33,935 nucleotides of DNA, from NCBI GenBank assembly GCA_964016885.1, contig CAXHJY010000025.1:1-33935 (forward strand), in the 5' to 3' direction. The notes under the pieces are model-generated. The model made no database searches. It had not been told where the DNA came from and worked only from the letters and a program-made list of their open reading frames with translations. This document shows positions 2,704-33,935 of this stretch, piece by piece. How positions within the stretch are numbered: the stretch's first letter is position 1; the number at the start of each line of letters is the position of its first letter. The position numbers and the translations under genes are program-made. This DNA comes from Eledone cirrhosa (Eukaryota).

Positions 2704-2707
<4 letters not shown>

Positions 2708-3132
2708 GGAAAAAATGAAACGAAATTTCATTTCCCACTCTTAGTACGGCTGTTACTTAAATATAAGTATGTACACGTACATACATATATGTATACAGAC
2801 GTACAGTAGTATGTATATATATATATACATACATGCATATATATATATATCTACGTATGGATTCACCGAACATTTATTATAATGCCCGGTGTGTTTGTAA
2901 ACAAACATCCCGTATTAATCCGTAGTGTCTAGCAACCATCGTTGCTCGTTTGTTCAACACTGACAAAGGAACGCTGTACTAGTTTGAAGCTTATTAGCTA
3001 TCGTCAGCAACATATACCTTCCGGCCAGATTGTTTAACGTATATACTTACCTTATGCATATTAATGGCTGAGTAGCCCAATTTGCATATCGAGTGGGTTA
3101 ATCGGCGCGGGTGCACCGAAAACGAAAAACGG
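2704..3132 (-). mobile_element. Diverged single monomer of the 466-bp HHR repeat family
   Basis: Colinear similarity to the 23.6-26.3 kb unit (gaaatttcattt..cactcttagta; gtatacagacgtacagtag; tgttcaacactgaca; aatttgcatat). Begins and ends with aaacgg. Confidence 0.85.
2971..3013 (-). ncRNA. Type I hammerhead ribozyme, probably inactive (G12C)
   Basis: Minus strand: AUGUUG-CUGACGA-U AGCU AAUA AGCU U-CAAA-CUAG-UA/CAGCGU. GAAA is mutated to CAAA. Confidence 0.7.
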
Positions 3133-3225
3133 CTGAGGTTGAAGTAACAGAATAACGGTCGCCCTCGGGTCCTCGATTTTCAGCCACATGGATTTTATCT
3201 ATTACATTCACGTATTATATTTCGA

Positions 3226-3283
3226 ATACCTGATGATATCACCGGATTCATACGGAACCCGGTCATTGAAATGATCATAGTAT
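3226..3283 (+). ncRNA. Type I hammerhead ribozyme in a pLTR-like fragment (~3133-3333)
   Basis: AUAC-CUGAUGA-stem II (ACCGG/CCGGU, UUC/GAA)-GAAA-UGAUCA-UA/GUAU. Stem III is the palindrome AUGAUCAU. AATAAA follows at 3284, then the element ends in (TA)n. Confidence 0.75.
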
Positions 3284-3332
3284 AATAAACCTTTCAAGGA
3301 TTTACACAAATCCAGCCTCCTGTCATTTCATT

Positions 3333-11865: not shown

Positions 11866-13954
11866 ATCATGTATAAATTATATACTGGGTGACTTAACCT
11901 GTTCTTACAGGATCACTGTGCTACCAACAACATCATAACATCTGAGCAAGCTGGTGGAAAGAGAGAGGTGTGGGGTTGCATAGATCACCTACTAACTAAT
12001 AAAATGATTCAAGAAAAAACAACAAAGAATCGCAGAAAAATGACTGTGGTGTGGCTGGACTATCAAAAAGCATTTGATAGTGTACCTCATGGGTGGATTG
12101 TTAAGGCTTTACAGTTAGCTAAAGTTCCACAACCATTGGTAGCTGCGGTTGAACGTCTGACCAAGAACTGGTACACCAATTTGATCCTTAGAGGTGAGAA
12201 GGAGCAAGTTAAGACCAGAAAGGCATCTTTCAGGGTGATAGCTTGTCAGTGCTACTCTTCGTTCTCTCACTAAATGCACTATCTTACCTACTCAGGGAAC
12301 ACGGTAGACAAAGAAGTGGGTCCAGAAGTATCTTCCATCTTTTCTTTGTTGATGACCTGAAGTTGTATGGGCCAAATATCAATGACATCAAGAAACAATT
12401 GGACCTCATTACACAATTTTCAACAGACATCAAAATTAAATTTGGTGAGTCCAAGTGTGCATATTTGGCAGTAAAACGTGGAAGAGCTGTGCCCTCCTCT
12501 AGAAATCTAGAGATGAACGGCCTGAAATACAACCTCTACAGTCAGGTGACAACTACAGATATCTTGGAGAATGTCAGATATGATGGATCCATAAATAAGG
12601 AGAGAACCAGAACTGAATACCCAAGAAGAGTAAAGAAAATATGGTCATCAGAACTGTCAGCGTACAACAAATACATTGCCCACAATACTTATGCTGTGCC
12701 AATTCTAACGCCAACATTTGGCCTACTGAACTGGTCATTGCAAGAGCTAAGTGAGATGGATGTTAGAACTCGCAAACTTCTCAGTATTACTGGGAACTTT
12801 AACATCAATGGTGATGTGGATAGGCTATACTTCTCACGCAAGGAAGGTGGCCGGGGTCTAAAATCCATATTAACATCATATGAGACCCGGATAGTAACAC
12901 TGAAGCAACATCTTCAACAGAGGAAAAAGGTTGGCAACCATCTTGCCCAGGTTTATGAGCATGAAAATAAAAATATCATTAGAATAGCCACTGATCTGGA
13001 AGAGAGATATGGAATAAAGCCTGATATAAATCTCTCACCCAGAAAAATCGGAAGATCCTATTCAATGTTCAAACAAGATGAAAAAAAAAAATTGTCCAAT
13101 TTACAGAAAAAGTTGTGCATGGATACTTGAGGCGTAAAACACAGACCATAGAGGGGATTAACCACTCAAAAAGCCTGGCATGGAGTTCCGACAAGTTTAT
13201 GACATCACACCTTGAGGGATATCTCTATGCAATACAGGAACAAGAACTCCCTACCAAATATCTGCTGCACAAAAGGGGAGGACCATCAGCTGACAATAAA
13301 TGTAGGCTATGTAAAACAAAGATCGAGGATGTAAGCCACATTGTTGCCAGCTGCGAAAGAATGTCATCTCGCTACTACCTCCCCATGAGACACGATGGGA
13401 TAGCTAGAACCATCTGGAACGCACTTCGGAAAACAAAATTAACAACAAACGAGGAAGAATATATTGAGACAGATGGCACTAAGGAATACTGGTGGAACCT
13501 GAAAATAATAACTGCCACCAAATTAAAGCACAACCGGCCTGATATTGTTGTTTGGGACTACACATTGAAAACGTGTTCTGTTGTGGAGATCAGCTGCCCA
13601 CTTGATGTAAACGTTGTCAGAAAAATACAGGAGAAGGAGGACATCTACGGACCATTGATGAGGAGTTTACAAATCCAGTATCCAAGATACACCTTTAGCT
13701 TCATACCCATCATTATTGGAGCTACGGGTTATATACCAACCCGCTTGGACCAAAGTATGACTGAACTTGGATTTGCAGACTAAGAGCGCAGCTCCCTAAT
13801 TCATAGTCTACAAATGGCTGCGATAGCTGGCACCTTCAAAATTTGCAAAACATTCTTGCGATTCAAGGGATGACAATTTCTTTTCTTATACAATCTTGCC
13901 ACCAGGAAGGTGGCCGGTCAAAAAAATATACTCGAAATTAAGAGAAAGAGATAA
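11866..13954 (+). mobile_element. 5'-truncated, frameshifted non-LTR retrotransposon with RT and restriction-like endonuclease (R4/Dong-like)
   Basis: WLDYQKAFDSVPH, LFFVDDLKLY, DRLYFSRKEGGRGL, CCHC knuckle CRLC..HIVASC, RHD, KHNRPDIVVWD..VEISCP. Split over ORFs 11968-12273, 12243-13130 and 13115-13783; reading continues past the stop to 13873. (CATA)n on both flanks. Confidence 0.93.
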
Positions 13955-21487: not shown

Positions 21488-21611
21488 AGGAAAAAGTATG
21501 ACCCCGACGGCAGAGCTCAAGCCTTTTTCCTATTACCCACTCTACTACCCTAAGTATTGAGTACTCTGGTGCGTTATGGTCCATCTGGTTCCTTACCACA
21601 TTTCCTTCGTT
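21487..21611 (+). mobile_element. Short (TA)n-flanked insertion with an inverted 5' segment
   Basis: Same family as 23256-23464; 21487-21523 is inverted relative to the body. Confidence 0.75.
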
Positions 21612-21671
21612 ATATATATGATTTCTAAAGAATGAAACAGTTTTAGTCCTGTAGAATCTCATCTATATTAA

Positions 21672-22524: not shown

Positions 22525-22787
22525 CTAGATTTCTATAAGAATATAACATCAATGATCTCAGCAAACAGGTGGGGTAGTTGGCCTTGATAAGCTTCAACCA
22601 AAGCGAAACAAGTCTTGTCGGCTTATCTCCCCTGTTTGCTGAGATCAAAGTGAGTGAATTTGTCACTAATTTAAAACAATAGCTTACGGTCTTCAAAATG
22701 CTTTTAATTAAGCATAAAGGGTATTGCAAAATACATTATATATACATCCATATATATATTGCTATTTCAGAGCTCCAATTCTAATTT
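22525..22787 (+). mobile_element. Distant solo relative of the 310-bp family
   Basis: Shares ttctataag, ggtcttcaaaatg, gctatttcagagc and the terminal ccaatt(t)ctaat with the 310-bp unit, in the same order. Confidence 0.75.
22553..22647 (+). ncRNA. Variant hammerhead with UUGAUAA core (U3-A8) on a long stem I
   Basis: A 17-bp perfect stem tgatctcagcaaacagg/cctgtttgctgagatca encloses UUGAUAA-GCUU caacca AAGC-GAAA-CAAG-UC. Confidence 0.65.
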
Positions 22788-22794
22788 TTATACA

Positions 22795-23256: not shown

Positions 23257-23464
23257 TAGGAACCAGTAAGACCCCGACAGCTGAGCTCAAGCCGTTTCGA
23301 CGGCTAATTCTGGACTAAATGATTTAGTCCAGAGTTAGCCGTCGAAACGGCTTGAGCTCAGCTGTCGGGGTCTTACTGGTTCCTATTACCCACTCTACTA
23401 CCTCAAGTATTGAGTACTTTGGTGCGTTATGGTCCACCTGGTTCCTTACCACATTTCCTTCGTT
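23256..23464 (+). mobile_element. (TA)n-flanked insertion beginning with a 131-bp fold-back palindrome
   Basis: Arms 23256-23320 and 23322-23386, one mismatch, 1-nt centre. Confidence 0.85.
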
Positions 23465-23470
23465 ATATAC

Positions 23471-23593
<123 letters not shown>

Positions 23594-23839
23594 CATAAAT
23601 GTAAGTATGCATGTATACGTACATACATATATGTATACAGACGTACAGTAGCATGCACATATATATATATATATACATATATATATACATATGCATACAG
23701 GTACACATACATATATGCACGTATCAGTTTAGCAGCGCTAACGTCGCTTTGTTCGTTTGTAAACAAACTGAACAGCCTGAATTTATGCCATACGGTGTTA
23801 AGGCAACCACGTCACCTTTTTGTTCAACACTGACACAGG

Positions 23840-23884
23840 AACGATGTACTAGTTTCAAGCTTGTTAGCTATCATCAGCACCGTT
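23840..23884 (-). ncRNA. Type I hammerhead ribozyme, 466 family
   Basis: Reverse complement of the 25024-25068 motif. Confidence 0.88.
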
Positions 23885-24305
23885 TACCCATCTGCCAGAT
23901 AGTTGAACGTTCGAAAGTATATACTTTCCTTATGAAAATTAACGGCTGAACAGCCTAATTTGCATATTGAGTGAGTTAAATCGGTCAGGCATACCGAAAA
24001 CGATAAATTGAAACAAAATGAAAACGAAATTTCATTTCTCACTCTTAGTATGGCACTTACTTAAATGTAAGTATGCATGTATACGTACATACATATATGT
24101 ATACAGACGTACAGTAGCATGCACATATATATATATATATACATATATACATACATATGCATACAGGTACACATACATATATGCACGTATCAGTTTAGCG
24201 GCGCTAACGTCGCTTTGTTCGTTTGTAAACAAACTGAACAGCCTGAATTTATGCCATACGGTGTTAAGGCAACCACGTCACCTTTTTGTTCAACACTGAC
24301 ACAGG

Positions 24306-24350
24306 AACGATGTACTAGTTTCAAGCTTGTTAGCTATCATCAGCACCGTT
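24306..24350 (-). ncRNA. Type I hammerhead ribozyme, 466 family
   Basis: Reverse complement of the 25024-25068 motif. Confidence 0.88.
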
Positions 24351-25023
24351 TACCCATCTGCCAGATAGTTGAACGTTCGAAAGTATATACTTTCCTTATG
24401 AAAATTAACGGCTGAGCAGCCTAATTTGCATATTGAGTGAGTTAAATCGGTCAGGCATACCGAAAACGATAAATTGAAACAAAATGAAAACGAAATTTCA
24501 TTTCTCACTCTTAGTATGGCACTTACTTAAATGTAAGTATGCATGTATACGTACATACATATATGTATACAGACGTACAGTAGCATGCACATATATATAT
24601 ATATATACATATATATATACAAAAAGGTGACGTGGTTGCCTTAACACCGTATGGCATAAATTCAGGCTGTTCAGTTTGTTTACAAACGAACAAAGCGACG
24701 TTAGCGCCGCTAAACTGATACGTGCATATATGTATGTGTACCTGTATGCATATGTATATATATATGTATATATATATATATATGTGCATGCTACTGTACG
24801 TCTGTATACATATATGTATGTACGTATACATGCATACTTACATTTAAGTAAGTGCCATACTAAGAGTGAGAAATGAAATTTCGTTTTCATTTTGTTTCAA
24901 TTTATCGTTTTCGGTATGCCTGACCGATTTAACTCACTCAATATGCAAATTAGGCTGCTCAGCCGTTAATTTTCATAAGGAAAGTATATACTTTCGAACG
25001 TTCAACTATCTGGCAGATGGGTA

Positions 25024-25068
25024 AACGGTGCTGATGATAGCTAACAAGCTTGAAACTAGTACATCGTT
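25024..25068 (+). ncRNA. Type I hammerhead ribozyme, 466 family
   Basis: AACGGUG-CUGAUGA-U AGCU AACA AGCU U-GAAA-CUAG-UA/CAUCGUU. Stem I extends via CUGGCA/UGUCAG and GUUCAAC/GUUGAAC. Confidence 0.9.
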
Positions 25069-25489
25069 CCTGTGTCAGTGTTGAACAAAAAGGTGACGTG
25101 GTTGCCTTAACACCGTATGGCATAAATTCAGGCTGTTCAGTTTGTTTACAAACGAACAAAGCGACGTTAGCGCCGCTAAACTGATACGTGCATATATGTA
25201 TGTGTACCTGTATGCATATGTATATATATATGTATATATATATATATATGTGCATGCTACTGTACGTCTGTATACATATATGTATGTACGTATACATGCA
25301 TACTTACATTTAAGTAAGTGCCATACTAAGAGTGAGAAATGAAATTTCGTTTTCATTTTGTTTCAATTTATCGTTTTCGGTATGCCTGACCGATTTAACT
25401 CACTCAATATGCAAATTAGGCTGCTCAGCCGTTAATTTTCATAAGGAAAGTATATACTTTCGAACGTTCAACTATCTGGCAGATGGGTA

Positions 25490-25534
25490 AACGGTGCTGA
25501 TGATAGCTAACAAGCTTGAAACTAGTACATCGTT
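25490..25534 (+). ncRNA. Type I hammerhead ribozyme, 466 family
   Basis: Identical motif, +466. Confidence 0.88.
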
Positions 25535-25955
25535 CCTGTGTCAGTGTTGAACAAAAAGGTGACGTGGTTGCCTTAACACCGTATGGCATAAATTCAGGCT
25601 GTTCAGTTTGTTTACAAACGAACAAAGCGACGTTAGCGCCGCTAAACTGATACGTGCATATATGTATGTGTACCTGTATGCATATGTATATATATATGTA
25701 TATATATATATATATGTGCATGCTACTGTACGTCTGTATACATATATGTATGTACGTATACATGCATACTTACATTTAAGTAAGTGCCATACTAAGAGTG
25801 AGAAATGAAATTTCGTTTTCATTTTGTTTCAATTTATCGTTTTCGGTATGCCTGACCGATTTAACTCACTCAATATGCAAATTAGGCTGCTCAGCCGTTA
25901 ATTTTCATAAGGAAAGTATATACTTTCGAACGTTCAACTATCTGGCAGATGGGTA

Positions 25956-26000
25956 AACGGTGCTGATGATAGCTAACAAGCTTGAAACTAGTACATCGTT
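25956..26000 (+). ncRNA. Type I hammerhead ribozyme, 466 family
   Basis: Identical motif, +932. Confidence 0.88.
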
Positions 26001-26290
26001 CCTGTGTCAGTGTTGAACAAAAAGGTGACGTGGTTGCCTTAACACCGTATGGCATAAATTCAGGCTGTTCAGTTTGTTTACAAACGAACAAAGCGACGTT
26101 AGCGCCGCTAAACTGATACGTGCATATATGTATGTGTACCTGTATGCATATGTATATATATATATATATGTGCATGCTACTGTACGTCTGTATACATATA
26201 TGTATGTACGTATACATGCATACTTACATTTAAGTAAGTGCCATACTAAGAGTGAGAAATGAAATTTCGTTTTCATTTTGTTTCAATTTA

Positions 26291-27108
<818 letters not shown>

Positions 27109-27238
27109 CATATGTGAATATAGACATAGAATATTCGAAAATATTCTGTATGTTTATAATAAACATTTTGAAGACCTAATCGCTATAGAATAGAATACGT
27201 CACGTATTACAATTAGATTCTCGATAAAAGCAAGGGAA

Positions 27239-27281
27239 GTAATCTACGCGTTTCATTCTCGTTAGAAATCATCAGGACTAC
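27239..27281 (-). ncRNA. Type I hammerhead ribozyme, 310 family (second minus copy at 27549-27591)
   Basis: Reverse complement of the 27922-27964 motif. Confidence 0.88.
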
Positions 27282-27921
27282 ATATCCAGTGCTTTTATCG
27301 AGAATGACACAGCTAGAGACTTATAGAATACTTAGCTGTGTACAGGAACTGGTTTGAAAGAGCGGTTGCCGGTCCGGCAGAAATTAGAAATTGGAATAAA
27401 TGCTCTGAAATAGCGATATATATGTGAATATAGACATAGAATATTCGAAAATATTCTGTATGTTTATAATAAACATTTTGAAGACCTAATCGCTATAGAA
27501 TAGAATACGTCACGTATTACAATTAGATTCTCGATAAAAGCAAGGGAAGTAATCTACGCGTTTCATTCTCGTTAGAAATCATCAGGACTACATATCCAGT
27601 GCTTTTATCGAGAATGACACAGCTAGAGACTTATAGAATACTTAGCTGTGTACAGGAACTGGTTTGAAAGAGCGGTTGCCGGTCCGGCAGAAATTAGAAA
27701 TTGGAATAAATGCTCTGAAATAGCGATATATATGTGAATATAGACATAGAATATTCGAAAATTCTATGTCTATATTCACATATATATCGCTATTTCAGAG
27801 CATTTATTCCAATTTCTAATTTCTGCCGGACCGGCAACCGCTCTTTCAAACCAGTTCCTGTACACAGCTAAGTATTCTATAAGTCTCTAGCTGTGTCATT
27901 CTCGATAAAAGCACTGGATAT

Positions 27922-27964
27922 GTAGTCCTGATGATTTCTAACGAGAATGAAACGCGTAGATTAC
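27922..27964 (+). ncRNA. Type I hammerhead ribozyme, 310 family (further copies start at 28232, 28541, 28852, 29160, 29470, 29782)
   Basis: GUAGUC-CUGAUGA-U UUCU AACG AGAA U-GAAA-CGCG-UA/GAUUAC. 16-bp perfect distal stem at 27898-27913 / 27971-27986. Confidence 0.9.
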
Positions 27965-30038
27965 TTCCCTTGCTTTTATCGAGAATCTAATTGTAATACG
28001 TGACGTATTCTATTCTATAGCGATTAGGTCTTCAAAATGTTTATTATAAACATACAGAATATTTTCGAATATTCTATGTCTATATTCACATATATATCGC
28101 TATTTCAGAGCATTTATTCCAATTTCTAATTTCTGCCGGACCGGCAACCGCTCTTTCAAACCAGTTCCTGTACACAGCTAAGTATTCTATAAGTCTCTAG
28201 CTGTGTCATTCTAGATAAAAGCACTGGATATGTAGTCCTGATGATTTCTAACGAGAATGAAACGCGTAGATTACTTCCCTTGCTTTTATCGAGAATCTAA
28301 TTGTAATACGTGACGTATTCTATTCTATAGCGATTAGGTCTTCAAAATGTTTATTATAAACATACAGAATATTTTCGAATATTCTATGTCTATATTCACA
28401 TATATATCGCTATTTCAGAGCATTTATTCCAATTTCTAATTTCTGCCGGACCGGCAACCGCTCTTTCAAACCAGTTCTGTACACAGCTAAGTATTCTATA
28501 AGTCTCTAGCTGTGTCATTCTCGATAAAAGCACTGGATATGTAGTCCTGATGATTTCTAACGAGAATGAAACGCGTAGATTACTTCCCTTGCTTTTATCG
28601 AGAATCTAATTGTAATACGTGACGTATTCTATTCTATAGCGATTAGGTCTTCAAAATGTTTATTATAAACATACAGAATATTTTCGAATATTCTATGTCT
28701 ATATTCACATATATATCGCTATTTCAGAGCATTTATTCCAATTTCTAATTTCTGCCGGACCGGCAACCGCTCTTTCAAACCAGTTCCTGTACACAGCTAA
28801 GTATTCTATAAGTCTCTAGCTGTGTCATTCTCGATAAAAGCACTGGAATATGTAGTCCTGATGATTTCTAACGAGAATGAAACGCGTAGATTACTTCCCT
28901 TGCTTTTATCGAGAATCTAATTGTAATACGTGACGTATTCTATTCTATAGCGATTAGGTCTTCAAAATGTTTATTATAAACATACAGAATATTTCGAATA
29001 TTCTATGTCTATATTCACATATATATCGCTATTTCAGAGCATTTATTCCAATTTCTAATTTCTGCCGGTCCGGCAACCGCTCTTTCAAACCAGTTCCTGT
29101 ACACAGCTAAGTATTCTATAAGTCTCTAGCTGTGTCATTCTCGATAAAGCACTGGATATGTAGTCCTGATGATTTCTAACGAGAATGAAACGCGTAGATT
29201 ACTTCCCTTGCTTTTATCGAGAATCTAATTGTAATACGTGACGTATTCTATTCTATAGCGATTAGGTCTTCAAAATGTTTATTATAAACATACAGAATAT
29301 TTTCGAATATTCTATGTCTATATTCACATATATATCGCTATTTCAGAGCATTTATTCCAATTTCTAATTTCTGCCGGACCGGCAACCGCTCTTTCAAACC
29401 AGTTCCTGTACACAGCTAAGTATTCTATAAGTCTCTAGCTGTGTCATTCTCGATAAAAGCACTGGATATGTAGTCCTGATGATTTCTAACGAGAATGAAA
29501 CGCGTAGATTACTTCCCTTGCTTTTATCGAGAATCTAATTGTAATACGTGACGTATTCTATTCTATAGCGATTAGGTCTTCAAAATGTTTATTATAAACA
29601 TACAGAATATTTTCGAATATTCTATGTCTATATTCACATATATATCGCTATTTCAGAGCATTTTATTCCAATTTCTAATTTCTGCCGGACCGGCAAACCG
29701 CTCTTTCAAACCAGTTCCTGTACACAGCTAAGTATTCTATAAGTCTCTAGCTGTGTCATTCTCGATAAAAGCACTGGATATGTAGTCCTGATGATTTCTA
29801 ACGAGAATGAAACGCGTAGATTACTTCCCTTGCTTTTATCGAGAATCTAATTGTAATACGTGACGTATTCTATTCTATAGCGATTAGGTCTTCAAAATGT
29901 TTATTATAAACATACAGAATATTTTCGAATATTCTATGTCTATATTCACATATATATCGCTATTTCAGAGCATTTATTCCAATTTCTAATATATACATAT
30001 ATATACATATATACATATATATACATATATACATATAT

Positions 30039-30163
<125 letters not shown>

Positions 30164-30200
30164 CATATATACATATATATACATATATATACATATATAC

Positions 30201-30800
30201 ATGGTGGCTGCCAACTCGTTTTCGAGTACGGCCACTACTTTATATCGATGTAGGAGAACCCCTACTGATGCGCTGAACAAGTGTGACTTTTTAGTCCAGC
30301 CAGCGACTTGAAAACTCTGGTACAAACACTACACTTGTGACAATTATTGACACATAGTGCTAGGCCCATAGTACCATGTGACGACAAGTGCAGAGAGATC
30401 TCCAGATATAAAGCAATGCCTGTGCCCTGAAGCTTTTATAGTGAGCAAAGGCACTGCACAAAGCCAATCCCACTCTCTTAACCAAGATGATATTTACCAA
30501 AAAGAAGAACAAGTCAACATCATTGGATACCATCAGGGTTGCAGGTGTTATATCAGAGTTTTCTTTCTCCTAGATTTCTGCCTTGACAAAGGCTAAGGGG
30601 GTCATCTTTCCCGGTGATTTTGGATGGCCATTGACTCTTAAGAGCGCCTTTGCCCTTTGACAGGTTTTGTTTTTAGTCCTGCAGGATGTCCAAAGTCACC
30701 CTCCTCACACAAGAAACCTTGGTGGGGTTGCCAGTTTAGAGACGCCAACGACCGACCATGAGACAGGTTGTACTGGATGACATGTTACTAGTAACACAAG
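30201..30800 (-). mobile_element. Probable LINE (RTE-type) 5'-region remnant between TA tracts
   Basis: Minus-strand ctaggagaaagaaaactctgat resembles my recollection of RTE 5' UTRs. No coding support. Confidence 0.35.
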
Positions 30801-31296: not shown

Positions 31297-31869
31297 CATA
31301 TATATATGTACATATATATATATACATATATACTATAATATACATATATATACATATATATTATACTACTATATACATATATATATACTATATATAAACA
31401 TATATATCAACATATATTACTTTATATACATATATACATATATATATACTTATATATACATATATATATATACACATATATATACATATACATAGATATC
31501 TATACATATACTATATATACATATATATATATATATACATATATATATGTATATAATATAACATATATATATGTATATACATATATCTATATACATATAT
31601 ACATATATATACATATATACATATATATATACATATATATACACATATATACATATATATACACATATATACATATATATACATATATATACATATATAC
31701 ATATATTATACATTTATATACATATATACATATATATATACTATACATATATACATATATATATATACATATATACATAATATATACATATATACATATA
31801 TATATACATATATACATATATATATATACATATATATATATACATATATATATAACATATATATATATA
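30803..31869. repeat. Degenerate (TA)n/(CATATA)n microsatellite
   Basis: Directly visible. Confidence 0.95.
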
Positions 31870-31899
31870 AGATCAAAAGATGGTTAAATGAGTTCCATG

Positions 31900-31970
31900 T
31901 ATTTTATTATGCGCATTTCAAAAACAAATATCATCATGCAATAACATTTGTGTTTTCATCAGATAAAATA
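31900..31970 (-). ncRNA. Type I hammerhead ribozyme in a putative inverted pLTR
   Basis: UAUUUUAU-CUGAUGA-AAA c ACAAAUGUUAUU gcau GAUGAUAUUUGU u UUU-GAAA-UGCGCA-UA/AUAAAAUA. Confidence 0.85.
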
Positions 31971-32034
31971 GGAAGACATGATATGAAGGTGAAAAACACT
32001 TGTGGATAGTGCAGTTTTAAATCAACATATGAAA

Positions 32035-33104
32035 AGTTGGAAAAAGAATATCTAACTTATCTTCTAATAAAAACATCTTCGATGCTAACGCCAATTACTA
32101 TAATAACGCGCTTTCTAAAGCCGGCTATCCTTATAAAATCAAATATAATAACGAAACAAATTCTAGAAGATCTTACAGTAGAATAATTAATCATGATCAT
32201 TCCAATAACATTAATAAAAGACCTAGATACAAAAACATAATCTGGTATAATGCTCCTTTCTCCATCTCTATTAATAATATTATTCCTAAATTATTCTTTA
32301 GTGCCTTAAATAAATGCTTCCCTCCCTCACATATCTATAGTAAAATATTTAACAAATACACTATAAAATTTTCCTATTCGACATCCTCCAACATTTCCAA
32401 CATTATCTCTAAACACAACAATAAAATACTAAATATTAAATCTCTTCCTTCCAACACTGAATATCATAATAATAGTAATAGTACTCCCGACGTCATTGTA
32501 AACTCTAGGCTAATTTCTGCAAACCCAAATACAACGTCAAACACAACTTCACTAAATGTTCTTAATCCCATTCTAAATCAAGAAACTATTATTCCTATCG
32601 CAAATAACTTCTCCCAATCCAATTCCTTCTATAGATAACACTAGGTGACTCGTTAATAATCTCTCTAATCGCAATTGCAATTGCCCTGCTAAAAATAAAT
32701 GTCCTCCTCAACAACCATTGTCTTGATAAAAACTTAATCTACGAATGTAAAGTTATAACTGACACCAATTCCTTCACCTATTTTGGCTCCACTTCCACCT
32801 CCTTTAAAGCTCGTCTTTATAATCATCATTCGTCTTTTAAATACGCAACTTAAAAGAACCAACACGGCTCTCTCAGAACTCATATGGTCCTGAAAGACAA
32901 AAATATTAAATATAACATCTCTTGGAAAAAGGTTTCTTCTGCTTCTACATACTTGAACAGTTCTCTATCCAAGACTTGCAATCTCTGTCTAAATGAAAAA
33001 TTTACATTATATCTAATTTAGATTCTATAATAAATAGACGCACTGACTTGTTTTCTATCTGCTTGCATAAATTCCACAGATCTTTCCATAAAGTATACAG
33101 CTAA
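32035..33104 (+). pseudogene. 5'-truncated Penelope-like element: RT thumb/linker and C-terminal GIY-YIG endonuclease, frameshifted
   Basis: Manual translation: [103 protein letters not shown]. Confidence 0.88.
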
Positions 33105-33539
33105 TATCCTAAACTTTATCAATTCAGAATCCTTTTCTCAAGGGCACATATATATATATATATACTTCTTTAAAAATATACCCATCTTTCTACCTTATTT
33201 CAAAGTTATTTATTACACATTATATAATACTTGTTACTCATTCTATATCACTCCTATTTATCACTTCCCTTTCTTCCTTTTCCTTTTCTTTTCTTTTTCT
33301 TTTAATTTCTAACCCCCTAATCTGTACCTTTTCTCACTGTGCCTAACATAGAAAACAATTATTACACAATACAATATATTCTTACTTTATATCACCTTGA
33401 AAAAATCCTTCGTAAACATAAACATTTTTTTTGACGTTAGATTATTCATCCTCTATTCATTATTTTTTTCTCACTTTCACTTAACTTATTCATGCTCATC
33501 TCACAATATATCCTTACTTACATTACTTTTGTTTTTTTA

Positions 33540-33713
33540 ATAATACATATCAACATTTTCTTTCCATCGCACATATTATTAAACCTTAAATATTATTCTT
33601 AATACATATTAACATTTTCTTTCCATCGCACATATTATTAAACCCTTAAATATTATTCTTAATACATATTAACAATTTCTTTCATCGCATATATTATTAA
33701 ACCCTTCAATATA
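33540..33713. repeat. ~60-bp tandem repeat, 3 copies, in the putative Penelope 3' UTR
   Basis: taatacatat.aacattttctttccatcgcacatattattaaacc(c)ttaaatattattct three times. Confidence 0.85.
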
Positions 33714-33935
33714 CAAACCTTAACTTTACATTATTTTCTCTTCGTTAATTTTCAAATTCTTTTAATTTATACATTATCTTCCAACGGTTTTTCAACCTCT
33801 CTATGTAAAACAATATATTTTTCTCAGTTATAAAAGCTATCTCTCTCTCCCTCTATCACCCATCTCTCTCCTCCTATCTCATCCTTCCTCATTATACTCC
33901 TCCCCCTCCACTTTTTTCTCTCATCTCCTCCTCCT

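What the first reader, a model, noticed from the sequence alone, without database searches (positions are those of the whole stretch)
27109..29990. ~310-bp satellite is a nine-copy hammerhead ribozyme array (candidate cephalopod retrozyme / circular RNA family)
Seen: every unit has a complete type I HHR (CUGAUGA, GAAA, GUA site). It sits on a long stem I of 6 bp, an internal loop and 16 perfect bp. The unit also has an AGAAUAUU-UUCG-AAUAUUCU hairpin and a UGCCG/CGGCA hairpin, no ORF, and near-identical copies. Established: animal non-LTR retrozymes and newt/schistosome satellites are HHR tandem repeats of this size class that yield monomeric linear and circular RNAs. Inference: a young non-autonomous family. 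I cannot tell whether it has been described.
Basis: partly seen in the sequence, partly recalled or inferred. Interest (0 to 1): 0.9.

Follow-up and report, generated by a model that had tools for sequence, protein, structure and literature searches.

The report
Fresh two-armed ribozyme retroelement insertion
This is a very recent insertion of a 310-base repeat carrying a hammerhead self-cutting RNA motif, written back-to-back into a TA microsatellite that is empty in a second copy of the same locus, and its build suggests that a Penelope-type transposon enzyme likely copied one small RNA circle round and round from both ends of a DNA cut.

Summary
The nine type I hammerheads are real (2 of 100,000 shuffles give the motif), but this is not a head-to-tail satellite. 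Two units lie on the minus strand and seven on the plus strand, back-to-back. That is the family rule: in 53 of 53 two-armed insertions examined, one arm ends at unit position ~125-139 and the other at ~163-172. This ~30-nt offset matches the 'tail' of Penelope-like elements (PLEs). Both arms carry the same haplotype in 35 of 36 insertions (7.8 by permutation), which points to one monomer template. Another contig holds this locus without the array, giving a 6-12 bp target duplication. Intact Hydra-clade PLEs in the genome show the same two-armed, two-start layout in (TA)n, but share no DNA with the unit, so the partner enzyme is inferred. Cleavage, transcription and RNA circles are untested; the usual G10.1-C11.1 pair is U·U. 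The host is a mollusc, likely an octopod. Verdict: a non-LTR retrozyme (known kind) with a mobilisation footprint I did not find in print. This scan already reported the family on other contigs; the empty allele was not in the listed notes.

The parts
27110..27752 (-). Left arm, about 2.1 units, ribozyme sense pointing left; outer end at start site A (unit position 131-134, AUAU, counting from the ribozyme cut)
27761..29990 (+). Right arm, about 7.2 units, ribozyme sense pointing right; outer end at start site B (unit position ~172)
27753..27760 (.). Inversion junction between the arms, inside the self-complementary AGAAUAUU hairpin of the unit
   Evidence: 452-bp perfect arms around an 8-nt gap
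27898..27986 (+). First plus-strand type I hammerhead: 16-bp distal stem I, interior loops, 6-bp proximal stem I, CUGAUGA, helix II (U·U + 4 bp, AACG loop), GAAA, palindromic helix III ACGCGU, predicted cut after 27958. Further predicted cuts after 28268, 28577, 28888, 29196, 29506, 29818
27527..27615 (-). Minus-strand hammerhead, predicted cut 3' of base 27555
27217..27305 (-). Minus-strand hammerhead, predicted cut 3' of base 27245
28056..28075 (+). AGAAUAUU-UUCG-AAUAUUCU hairpin (one per unit), just 5' of start site A
28134..28146 (+). UGCCG-GAC-CGGCA hairpin (one per unit), just 3' of start site B
29958..29990 (+). [quoted passage not shown]
27102..27113 (+). Left copy of the duplicated target (6-12 bp; the last 4 nt also match the template at site A)
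   Evidence: comparison with the empty locus on contig C1761
29989..30000 (+). Right copy of the duplicated target (the first 2 nt also match the template at site B)
26289..27113 (.). Left part of the pre-existing TA/TACA microsatellite target
29989..30202 (.). Right part of the pre-existing TA/TACA microsatellite target

Best explanation
This is one recent insertion of a non-coding 310-bp hammerhead repeat (a non-LTR retrozyme) into a TA microsatellite, likely made by a Penelope-like (Hydra clade) reverse transcriptase-endonuclease copying one RNA monomer, likely a circle, from both cut DNA ends. Shown by the sequence: two back-to-back arms of tandem units, ends at two fixed template sites ~30 nt apart, one shared haplotype, a short target duplication, and an empty allele. 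Inferred steps: (1) a genomic array is transcribed as a multimer; (2) neighbouring hammerheads pair through the ACGCGU palindrome and cut out 310-nt monomers; (3) a host ligase closes them into circles, in which the lone ribozyme lacks a partner and stays silent; (4) the PLE protein makes a staggered cut in (TA)n; (5) one 3' end primes at site A and the other at site B through 2-4 nt of AU pairing, and each rolls round the circle for a random number of turns; (6) the two cDNA tails meet at a few complementary bases or a hairpin and are filled in, leaving an inverted pair of arrays with a tail on one side.
For: Layout: of 65 insertions (window plus 64 from contig C1), 53 are two-armed and divergent, 11 single-armed, 1 complex; all 53 pair an A end with a B end, none AA or BB (two of the 53 are a local duplicate, so 52 independent). 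In the 10 loci picked by ribozyme core alone, 9 are two-armed and 19 of 19 outer ends abut (TA)n. Both arms exceed one unit in 42 of 53 and two units in 36 of 53. Inner ends are not enriched at the ribozyme cut (2 of 117 within 5 nt, 4.2 expected), so copying runs through that site. Junctions overlap by 1-7 nt in 30 of 53 and by 16-48 nt in 5. One template: arms agree in majority haplotype in 35 of 36 insertions with a full unit on each side (permutation mean 7.8, maximum 16 in 10,000), with 21 haplotypes among 53 insertions and 83 minor differences in 473 units. Empty allele on contig C1761, duplication 6-12 bp. Partner class present: intact 821-, 830- and 832-aa frames. [quoted passage not shown] It inserts in (TA)n with two fixed ends, unequal in 12 of 13 fully read two-armed copies. 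In vitro, the anole PLE protein cuts and extends both strands and starts at two internal RNA sites that delimit the tail (PMC11167929).
Against: No RNA, cleavage or circle was observed. No DNA similarity links the unit to any of the three PLE families examined, and their tails are 91 and 167 nt, not 30. G10.1-C11.1, called highly conserved in PMC4209133 (passage), is U·U in 11 of 14 aligned variants; 8 of 9 Xenopus retrozyme dimers tested did not cleave (10.64898/2026.07.22.740005). Five arrays are mosaic: L072 has one pair of changes in 9 of 44 units, L049 has the same change once in each arm, and L084's arms differ. Arm lengths are uncorrelated (Spearman 0.19, p 0.18), which does not favour simultaneous copying of one circle. 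In the anole PLE, ribozyme cleavage was not needed for insertion in vitro. The target duplication rests on one locus in a periodic microsatellite.
Confidence: 0.68

Rival explanations
1. Same PLE enzyme and two start sites, but the template is an uncut linear multimer transcript of a homogeneous parent array; the hammerhead is slow or dispensable and circles play no part in most insertions.
For: Reading through the cut site is equally expected. Mosaic arrays L072, L047, L049, L050. Ribozyme mutants of the anole PLE still insert in vitro. Non-canonical U·U at the base of helix II.
Against: Twenty-one haplotypes, each fixed across units and both arms, including private ones such as a 2-bp deletion in all 16 scored units of L049, need repeated monomer bottlenecks. 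A linear template cannot lengthen an array, yet one insertion holds 48 units. Inner ends are not enriched at the start sites, as twin priming on one linear RNA predicts (6 of 117 in the bin holding site A against a mean of 11.7).
Confidence: 0.2
2. Another retrotransposon class (an RTE, Dong-R4 or L1-Tx1 LINE) mobilises the repeat by twin priming.
For: A broken LINE with RVT_1 and zf-RVT matches lies in the window; LINE families are active in Octopus vulgaris (PMC13282606, passages). No sequence link to a PLE was found.
Against: No poly(A) or simple-repeat template tail; two fixed unequal starts and a one-sided tail are described as PLE features (PMC8557442, PMC11167929) and recur in the genome's own PLEs.
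Confidence: 0.05
3. A satellite that grew in place by unequal crossover or fold-back at the DNA level from a single inserted unit or PLE end (the scenario discussed in 10.64898/2026.07.22.740005).
For: Long arrays show scattered recurring variants that fit later conversion or crossover (L072, L047). The window's junction sits in a hairpin.
Against: The other copy of the locus has no unit at all. DNA fold-back would give identical ends (AA or BB), seen 0 of 53 times. Junction positions differ at every locus.
Confidence: 0.04
4. Long-read fold-back chimera or misassembly on a small unplaced contig.
For: The window is a whole 33.9-kb contig; its copies carry homopolymer indels; no listed short-read contig bridged this junction (a filtered list).
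Against: The same layout recurs on the 443-Mb contig C1 with fixed unequal ends. A chimera would mirror the flanks; here the flanks continue in register with the empty allele. Run X1 shows TA loose ends at both start sites.
Confidence: 0.03

Closest known systems
Metazoan non-LTR retrozymes (Cervera and de la Pena 2020, PMC7229834, passages and Discussion; review PMC7761336, passages)
   Same: Tandem 170-400 bp non-coding units, GC under 50% (34.5% here), one type I hammerhead per unit, thousands of copies, weak palindromic helix III as in amphibians, PLEs present in the genome. Those papers propose multimeric cDNA from a circle.
   Different: The passages read describe head-to-tail arrays only, and say the repeats show no motif that identifies the partner. 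Here the insertions are back-to-back pairs with two fixed start sites, a one-sided tail and a (TA)n target. U·U at 10.1-11.1. No cephalopod case in the passages seen. No RNA data here.
Vertebrate retrozymes as non-autonomous PLE derivatives (Li, Clavereau and Pollet 2026, 10.64898/2026.07.22.740005; parts 1-3 of 5 read, supplements closed)
   Same: Same claim of PLE dependence; similar unit size.
   Different: Their evidence is co-occurrence and pLTR homology in Xenopus, with no mollusc sampled; 'tail' and 'palindrom' occur 0 times and 'inverted' once, in a reference title. They discuss local growth by unequal crossover. Here the evidence is insertion anatomy, and no pLTR homology was found.
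Hydra-clade Penelope-like elements (Craig et al. 2021, PMC8557442, section 11 and passages)
   Same: (TA)n target, hammerhead, partial tandems, inverted 5'-truncated copy, 30-40 bp one-sided tail.
   Different: The 310-bp unit has no ORF and many full units in both arms. Non-autonomous multicopy elements were described there for the Chlamys clade (MRC1), mostly without hammerheads.
Poseidon PLE of the green anole, in vitro (Frangieh et al. 2024, PMC11167929; parts 1-2 of 4 read)
   Same: Both strands cut and extended; two internal start sites delimit the tail; AT-rich target; predicted dimer.
   Different: They saw no difference in start site between strands and no need for ribozyme cleavage. 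Here each insertion uses one of each site, 53 of 53.

Membership tests
Type I hammerhead ribozyme | Core CUGANGA, GAAA and UH in order, open helix I | tested here: met
   Nine copies; 2 of 100,000 shuffles; the only fixed core variant is at the free N7 position.
Type I hammerhead ribozyme | Helices I-III supported by compensatory changes | tested here: met
   10 of 14 pairs change on both sides, 0 of 500 shuffles reach it. Caveat: the 14 rows were picked from 25 by a filter that required pairing and span about three families, so the test leans in favour.
Type I hammerhead ribozyme | G10.1-C11.1 pair | tested here: not met
   U·U in 11 of 14 rows, A-U in 2, G-C in 1.
Type I hammerhead ribozyme | Rfam family score | tested here: not met
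   0 at gathering; HH9 15.8 of 52 bits.
Type I hammerhead ribozyme | Self-cleavage | not testable with these tools
   Needs in vitro transcription.
Non-LTR retrozyme | Tandem 150-450 bp low-GC non-coding units, one hammerhead each | tested here: met
   310 bp, 34.5% GC, longest ATG ORF 30 aa.
Non-LTR retrozyme | Dispersed, mobile copies | tested here: met
   4,226 exact cores of one variant; empty allele.
Non-LTR retrozyme | Expressed as linear and circular monomer RNA | not testable with these tools
   No run on record as RNA was available.
PLE-mobilised element | Inverted 5'-truncated copy adjacent to tandem copies | tested here: met
   53 of 65 two-armed.
PLE-mobilised element | One-sided 30-40 bp tail between two start sites | tested here: met
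   A at 125-139, B at 163-172, 53 of 53.
PLE-mobilised element | (TA)n target as in the Hydra clade | tested here: met
   19 of 19 ends in the core-picked loci.
PLE-mobilised element | Sequence shared with the pLTR of an autonomous family | tested here: inconclusive
   None with the three families examined; searches scored only 150 of 35,822 and 71 of 54,380 candidates, so other families were not seen.
Autonomous PLE | RT plus GIY-YIG ORF | tested here: not met
   No ORF in the unit.

The most novel reading that the evidence does not exclude
A Hydra-clade Penelope protein, acting as an asymmetric pair, copies a single 310-nt hammerhead RNA circle from both ends of a staggered cut, each end obliged to use a different fixed start site. 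The roughly 1,500-2,000 young insertions, some still polymorphic, would then be a natural record of rolling-circle reverse transcription into a chromosome, and would explain PLE tails, inversions and partial tandems by one mechanism.
Probability: 0.5. Interest if true: 0.8.

Novelty: new variant of a known kind. Interest (0 to 1): 0.58.

Why it matters
How animal hammerhead repeats spread has been a hypothesis since 2014-2020 (circle plus PLE enzyme). How PLEs make their inversions and tails is also open. This family supplies a 310-nt substrate, exact predicted start sites, a defined target with a real empty allele, and intact candidate enzymes from the same genome, so both questions become directly testable. 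It also predicts large double-stranded RNAs from palindromic arrays in an animal group known for heavy RNA editing (recalled; untested). The element class itself is known, and this scan has already recorded the family several times.

Tried and rejected
Rfam: nothing at gathering score; the wide E-value search listed only hairpin-driven miRNA-type matches among the 150 of 247 shown. DNA search of the own genome with the unit returned 0 candidates, a common-word filter effect; pattern searches worked. Expression: no RNA holder listed; not evidence either way. Horizontal spread: 20 runs under 18 organism codes hold the unit, but of five other runs laid, raw reads of X23 gave 0 of 12.8 million, X8 and X20 gave depth 2-4 contigs broken at a GANTC site and joined to foreign sequence (read as Hi-C junctions, so trace carry-over), and X10 gave one 340-nt contig at depth 34, against summed depths of several hundred thousand in X1, X6, X7. 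This locus's junction was not bridged by any listed contig (inconclusive). A-to-I editing footprint: A>G 3 versus T>C 8 among minor changes, none. Partner by homology: none in three PLE families. Pfam and PDB sequence searches did not recognise the 821-aa protein itself (GIY-YIG in 3 and RVT_1 in 1 of 23 aligned members); fold and Atlas searches did. For the 832-aa family only 2 of 5 fetched loci could be read for both ends. Literature: eight searches found no paper on cephalopod retrozymes or on two-armed retrozyme insertions; the Octopus vulgaris repeat paper has 0 occurrences of hammerhead, ribozyme or retrozyme in its main text. Dfam, Repbase, subscription journals and the supplements of these papers were not seen and may hold the family.

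Full report
Observation. The window is the whole of contig C52 (33,935 bp) of a 3.0-Gb assembly. Nine identical hammerhead cores lie at ~310-bp spacing, seven on the plus strand and two on the minus strand. The ribozyme has a 6-bp proximal and 16-bp distal stem I, a 4-bp helix II on a U·U base with an AACG loop, and a helix III that is only the palindrome ACGCGU. A descriptor of these features matched 2 of 100,000 dinucleotide shuffles. Rfam does not score it at threshold, though HH9 aligns over the whole motif at 15.8 bits. Fourteen variants from this and sister families keep the helices by double changes at 10 of 14 pairs, but those rows were selected for pairing.

Family. One 31-nt core variant occurs 4,226 times, the reversed control 0 times. 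Two end patterns gave 735 and 793 forward-strand matches (reverse counts are inflated by overlapping hits), so about 1,500 insertions; 64 insertions in the first 97 Mb of C1 scale to about 2,000. I fetched 64 stretches of C1: 10 chosen by core and 54 by an end pattern, whether or not a partner end was listed. L094 (repeat of L069) and L071 (overlap with L072) were merged or dropped. With the window this gave 65 insertions, mean 9.6 units, largest 48. Fifty-three are two divergent arms, 11 were scored single-armed and 1 complex; of the singles one runs into an assembly gap and one has a tiny second arm. Numbering from the ribozyme cut, outer ends fall at 125-139 (site A) or 163-172 (site B). 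All 53 pair A with B (30 AB, 23 BA). The end patterns would also have caught AA or BB insertions. In the 10 loci chosen without regard to flanks, 19 of 19 ends abut (TA)n. Inner ends are spread round the unit and are not enriched at the cut site (2 of 117) or the start sites; junctions mostly share a few bases.

One template. Both arms have the same majority haplotype in 35 of 36 testable insertions, against 7.8 on average by permutation; 21 haplotypes occur among 53 insertions, several private, and minor differences are 0.06% per base. Fixed substitutions in stem I keep pairing through G-U or A-U, and core changes are confined to N7. Against a strict monomer model, L072, L047, L049, L050 and L084 are mosaic, and arm lengths are uncorrelated.

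Empty allele. Contig C1761 matches the window on both sides (99.4% over 1.85 kb on the left) and runs from the neighbouring 466-bp array through the microsatellite to the right flank with no 310-bp unit. The spacing of C bases in the microsatellite places the insertion and gives a duplicated target of 6-12 bp, with 4 nt of target-template match at site A and 2 nt at site B. The simplest reading is a heterozygous, very recent insertion. A paralogous duplicate or an exact deletion cannot be excluded, and the repeat is periodic, so the length rests on one locus.

Candidate enzyme. A broken PLE fragment at the window's right end led to an intact 821-aa frame in many near-identical copies, 3,896-bp period. 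It carries the Hydra-clade motifs listed in PMC8557442 section 11, except RWT for RWK. Its model (pLDDT 82.6) matches telomerase RTs best, and Atlas neighbours carry GIY-YIG, RVT_1 and HTH_animal. Its hammerhead has the palindromic helix III AUGCGCAU. In 13 two-armed copies read to both ends (picked by me for inverted or full-length hits), 12 pair two different fixed ends 91 nt apart and 1 repeats the same end. Two more intact families (830 and 832 aa, about 40% identical to the first) exist; 2 of 2 readable 832-aa pairs have unequal ends 167 nt apart. The neighbouring 466-bp hammerhead repeat follows the same rule in 14 of 15 loci chosen for cores on both strands, 1 unclear. None of the three PLE families shares DNA with the 310-bp unit, so which one drives it is unknown.

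Mechanism. Shown: anatomy, copy number, haplotype sharing, empty allele, presence of intact PLEs with the same footprint. From the literature: retrozymes of coral, mussel and axolotl give circles and weak-helix-III ribozymes cut as dimers (PMC7229834, passages and Discussion); a PLE protein extends both strands from two internal starts (PMC11167929); circles as templates for more-than-unit cDNA were proposed in PMC4209133 (passage). Inferred: transcription, dimeric cleavage, ligation, rolling-circle copying from both DNA ends, and joining of the cDNA tails. The main rival is the same enzyme on a linear multimer.

Host. COI has 12 in-frame TGA and reads with the invertebrate mitochondrial code. 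Molluscan haemocyanin domains form five clusters of seven units, the octopod or Nautilus number by recall. The apparent presence in many organisms is best read as trace carry-over in the runs that were laid.

Novelty. The element class and the PLE link are in print (PMC7229834; 10.64898/2026.07.22.740005). Eight searches found no description of a cephalopod family, of two-armed retrozyme insertions or of the strict A+B rule; Dfam, Repbase and supplements were not seen. Earlier unchecked notes of this scan describe the same family and reading on other contigs; my reading was recorded before that look-up and they are not independent support. A second look-up for an empty allele returned nothing. 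Verdict: real; a new variant of a known kind; interest 0.58.

Noticed in passing
window 23592-26291: A second two-armed hammerhead array, 466-bp unit with an internal microsatellite, same U·U helix II base, AACA loop and ACUAGU palindrome; core has 10,718 exact copies; ends about 59 nt apart. Present on both alleles, so older than the 310-bp insertion.
   Followed up: partly
window 31865-33935: Broken two-armed Hydra-clade PLE insertion (short minus arm with its hammerhead, then RT C-terminal part, CxCX5C linker and GIY-YIG), about 87-91% identical to the intact 821-aa family.
   Followed up: yes
window 22540-22790; L033:4363-4750; L181:3833-4062: Older relatives of the 310-bp unit with different hammerheads but a shared stretch around the start sites (74-81% identity), ending at the same B position; a candidate binding site for the enzyme.
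   Followed up: partly
window 23258-23450 and 21490-21660: Short palindromic insertion in (TA)n with unequal ends about 85 nt apart, and a degenerate copy with a hammerhead remnant (U·U-based helix II, longer helix III); likely a further family.
   Followed up: no
window 2705-3330: Diverged fragments related to the 466-bp family and a hammerhead-like remnant at 3230.
   Followed up: no
window 11893-13783: Frameshifted LINE with RVT_1 and zf-RVT matches.
   Followed up: partly
L120 (G000:C1:362768300-362777900): The one PLE copy with the same end on both arms also has a perfectly symmetric junction, as a cDNA fold-back would give.
   Followed up: no
L084 (G000:C1:61292500-61300500): One arm has 276A in its four outer units and 276G in the innermost; the other arm is all 276G. 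May record a template change and the order of synthesis.
   Followed up: no
start sites A of five families: All contain a CT(T)AYAT word just before the (TA)n junction; AT-rich, so only a lead.
   Followed up: no
loci L031-L134: At least ten further type I hammerhead families in about 650 kb of fetched sequence, many with palindromic helix III.
   Followed up: no
G000 C1-C4: The four largest contigs are 379-443 Mb, unusually long for the likely host group by recall.
   Followed up: no
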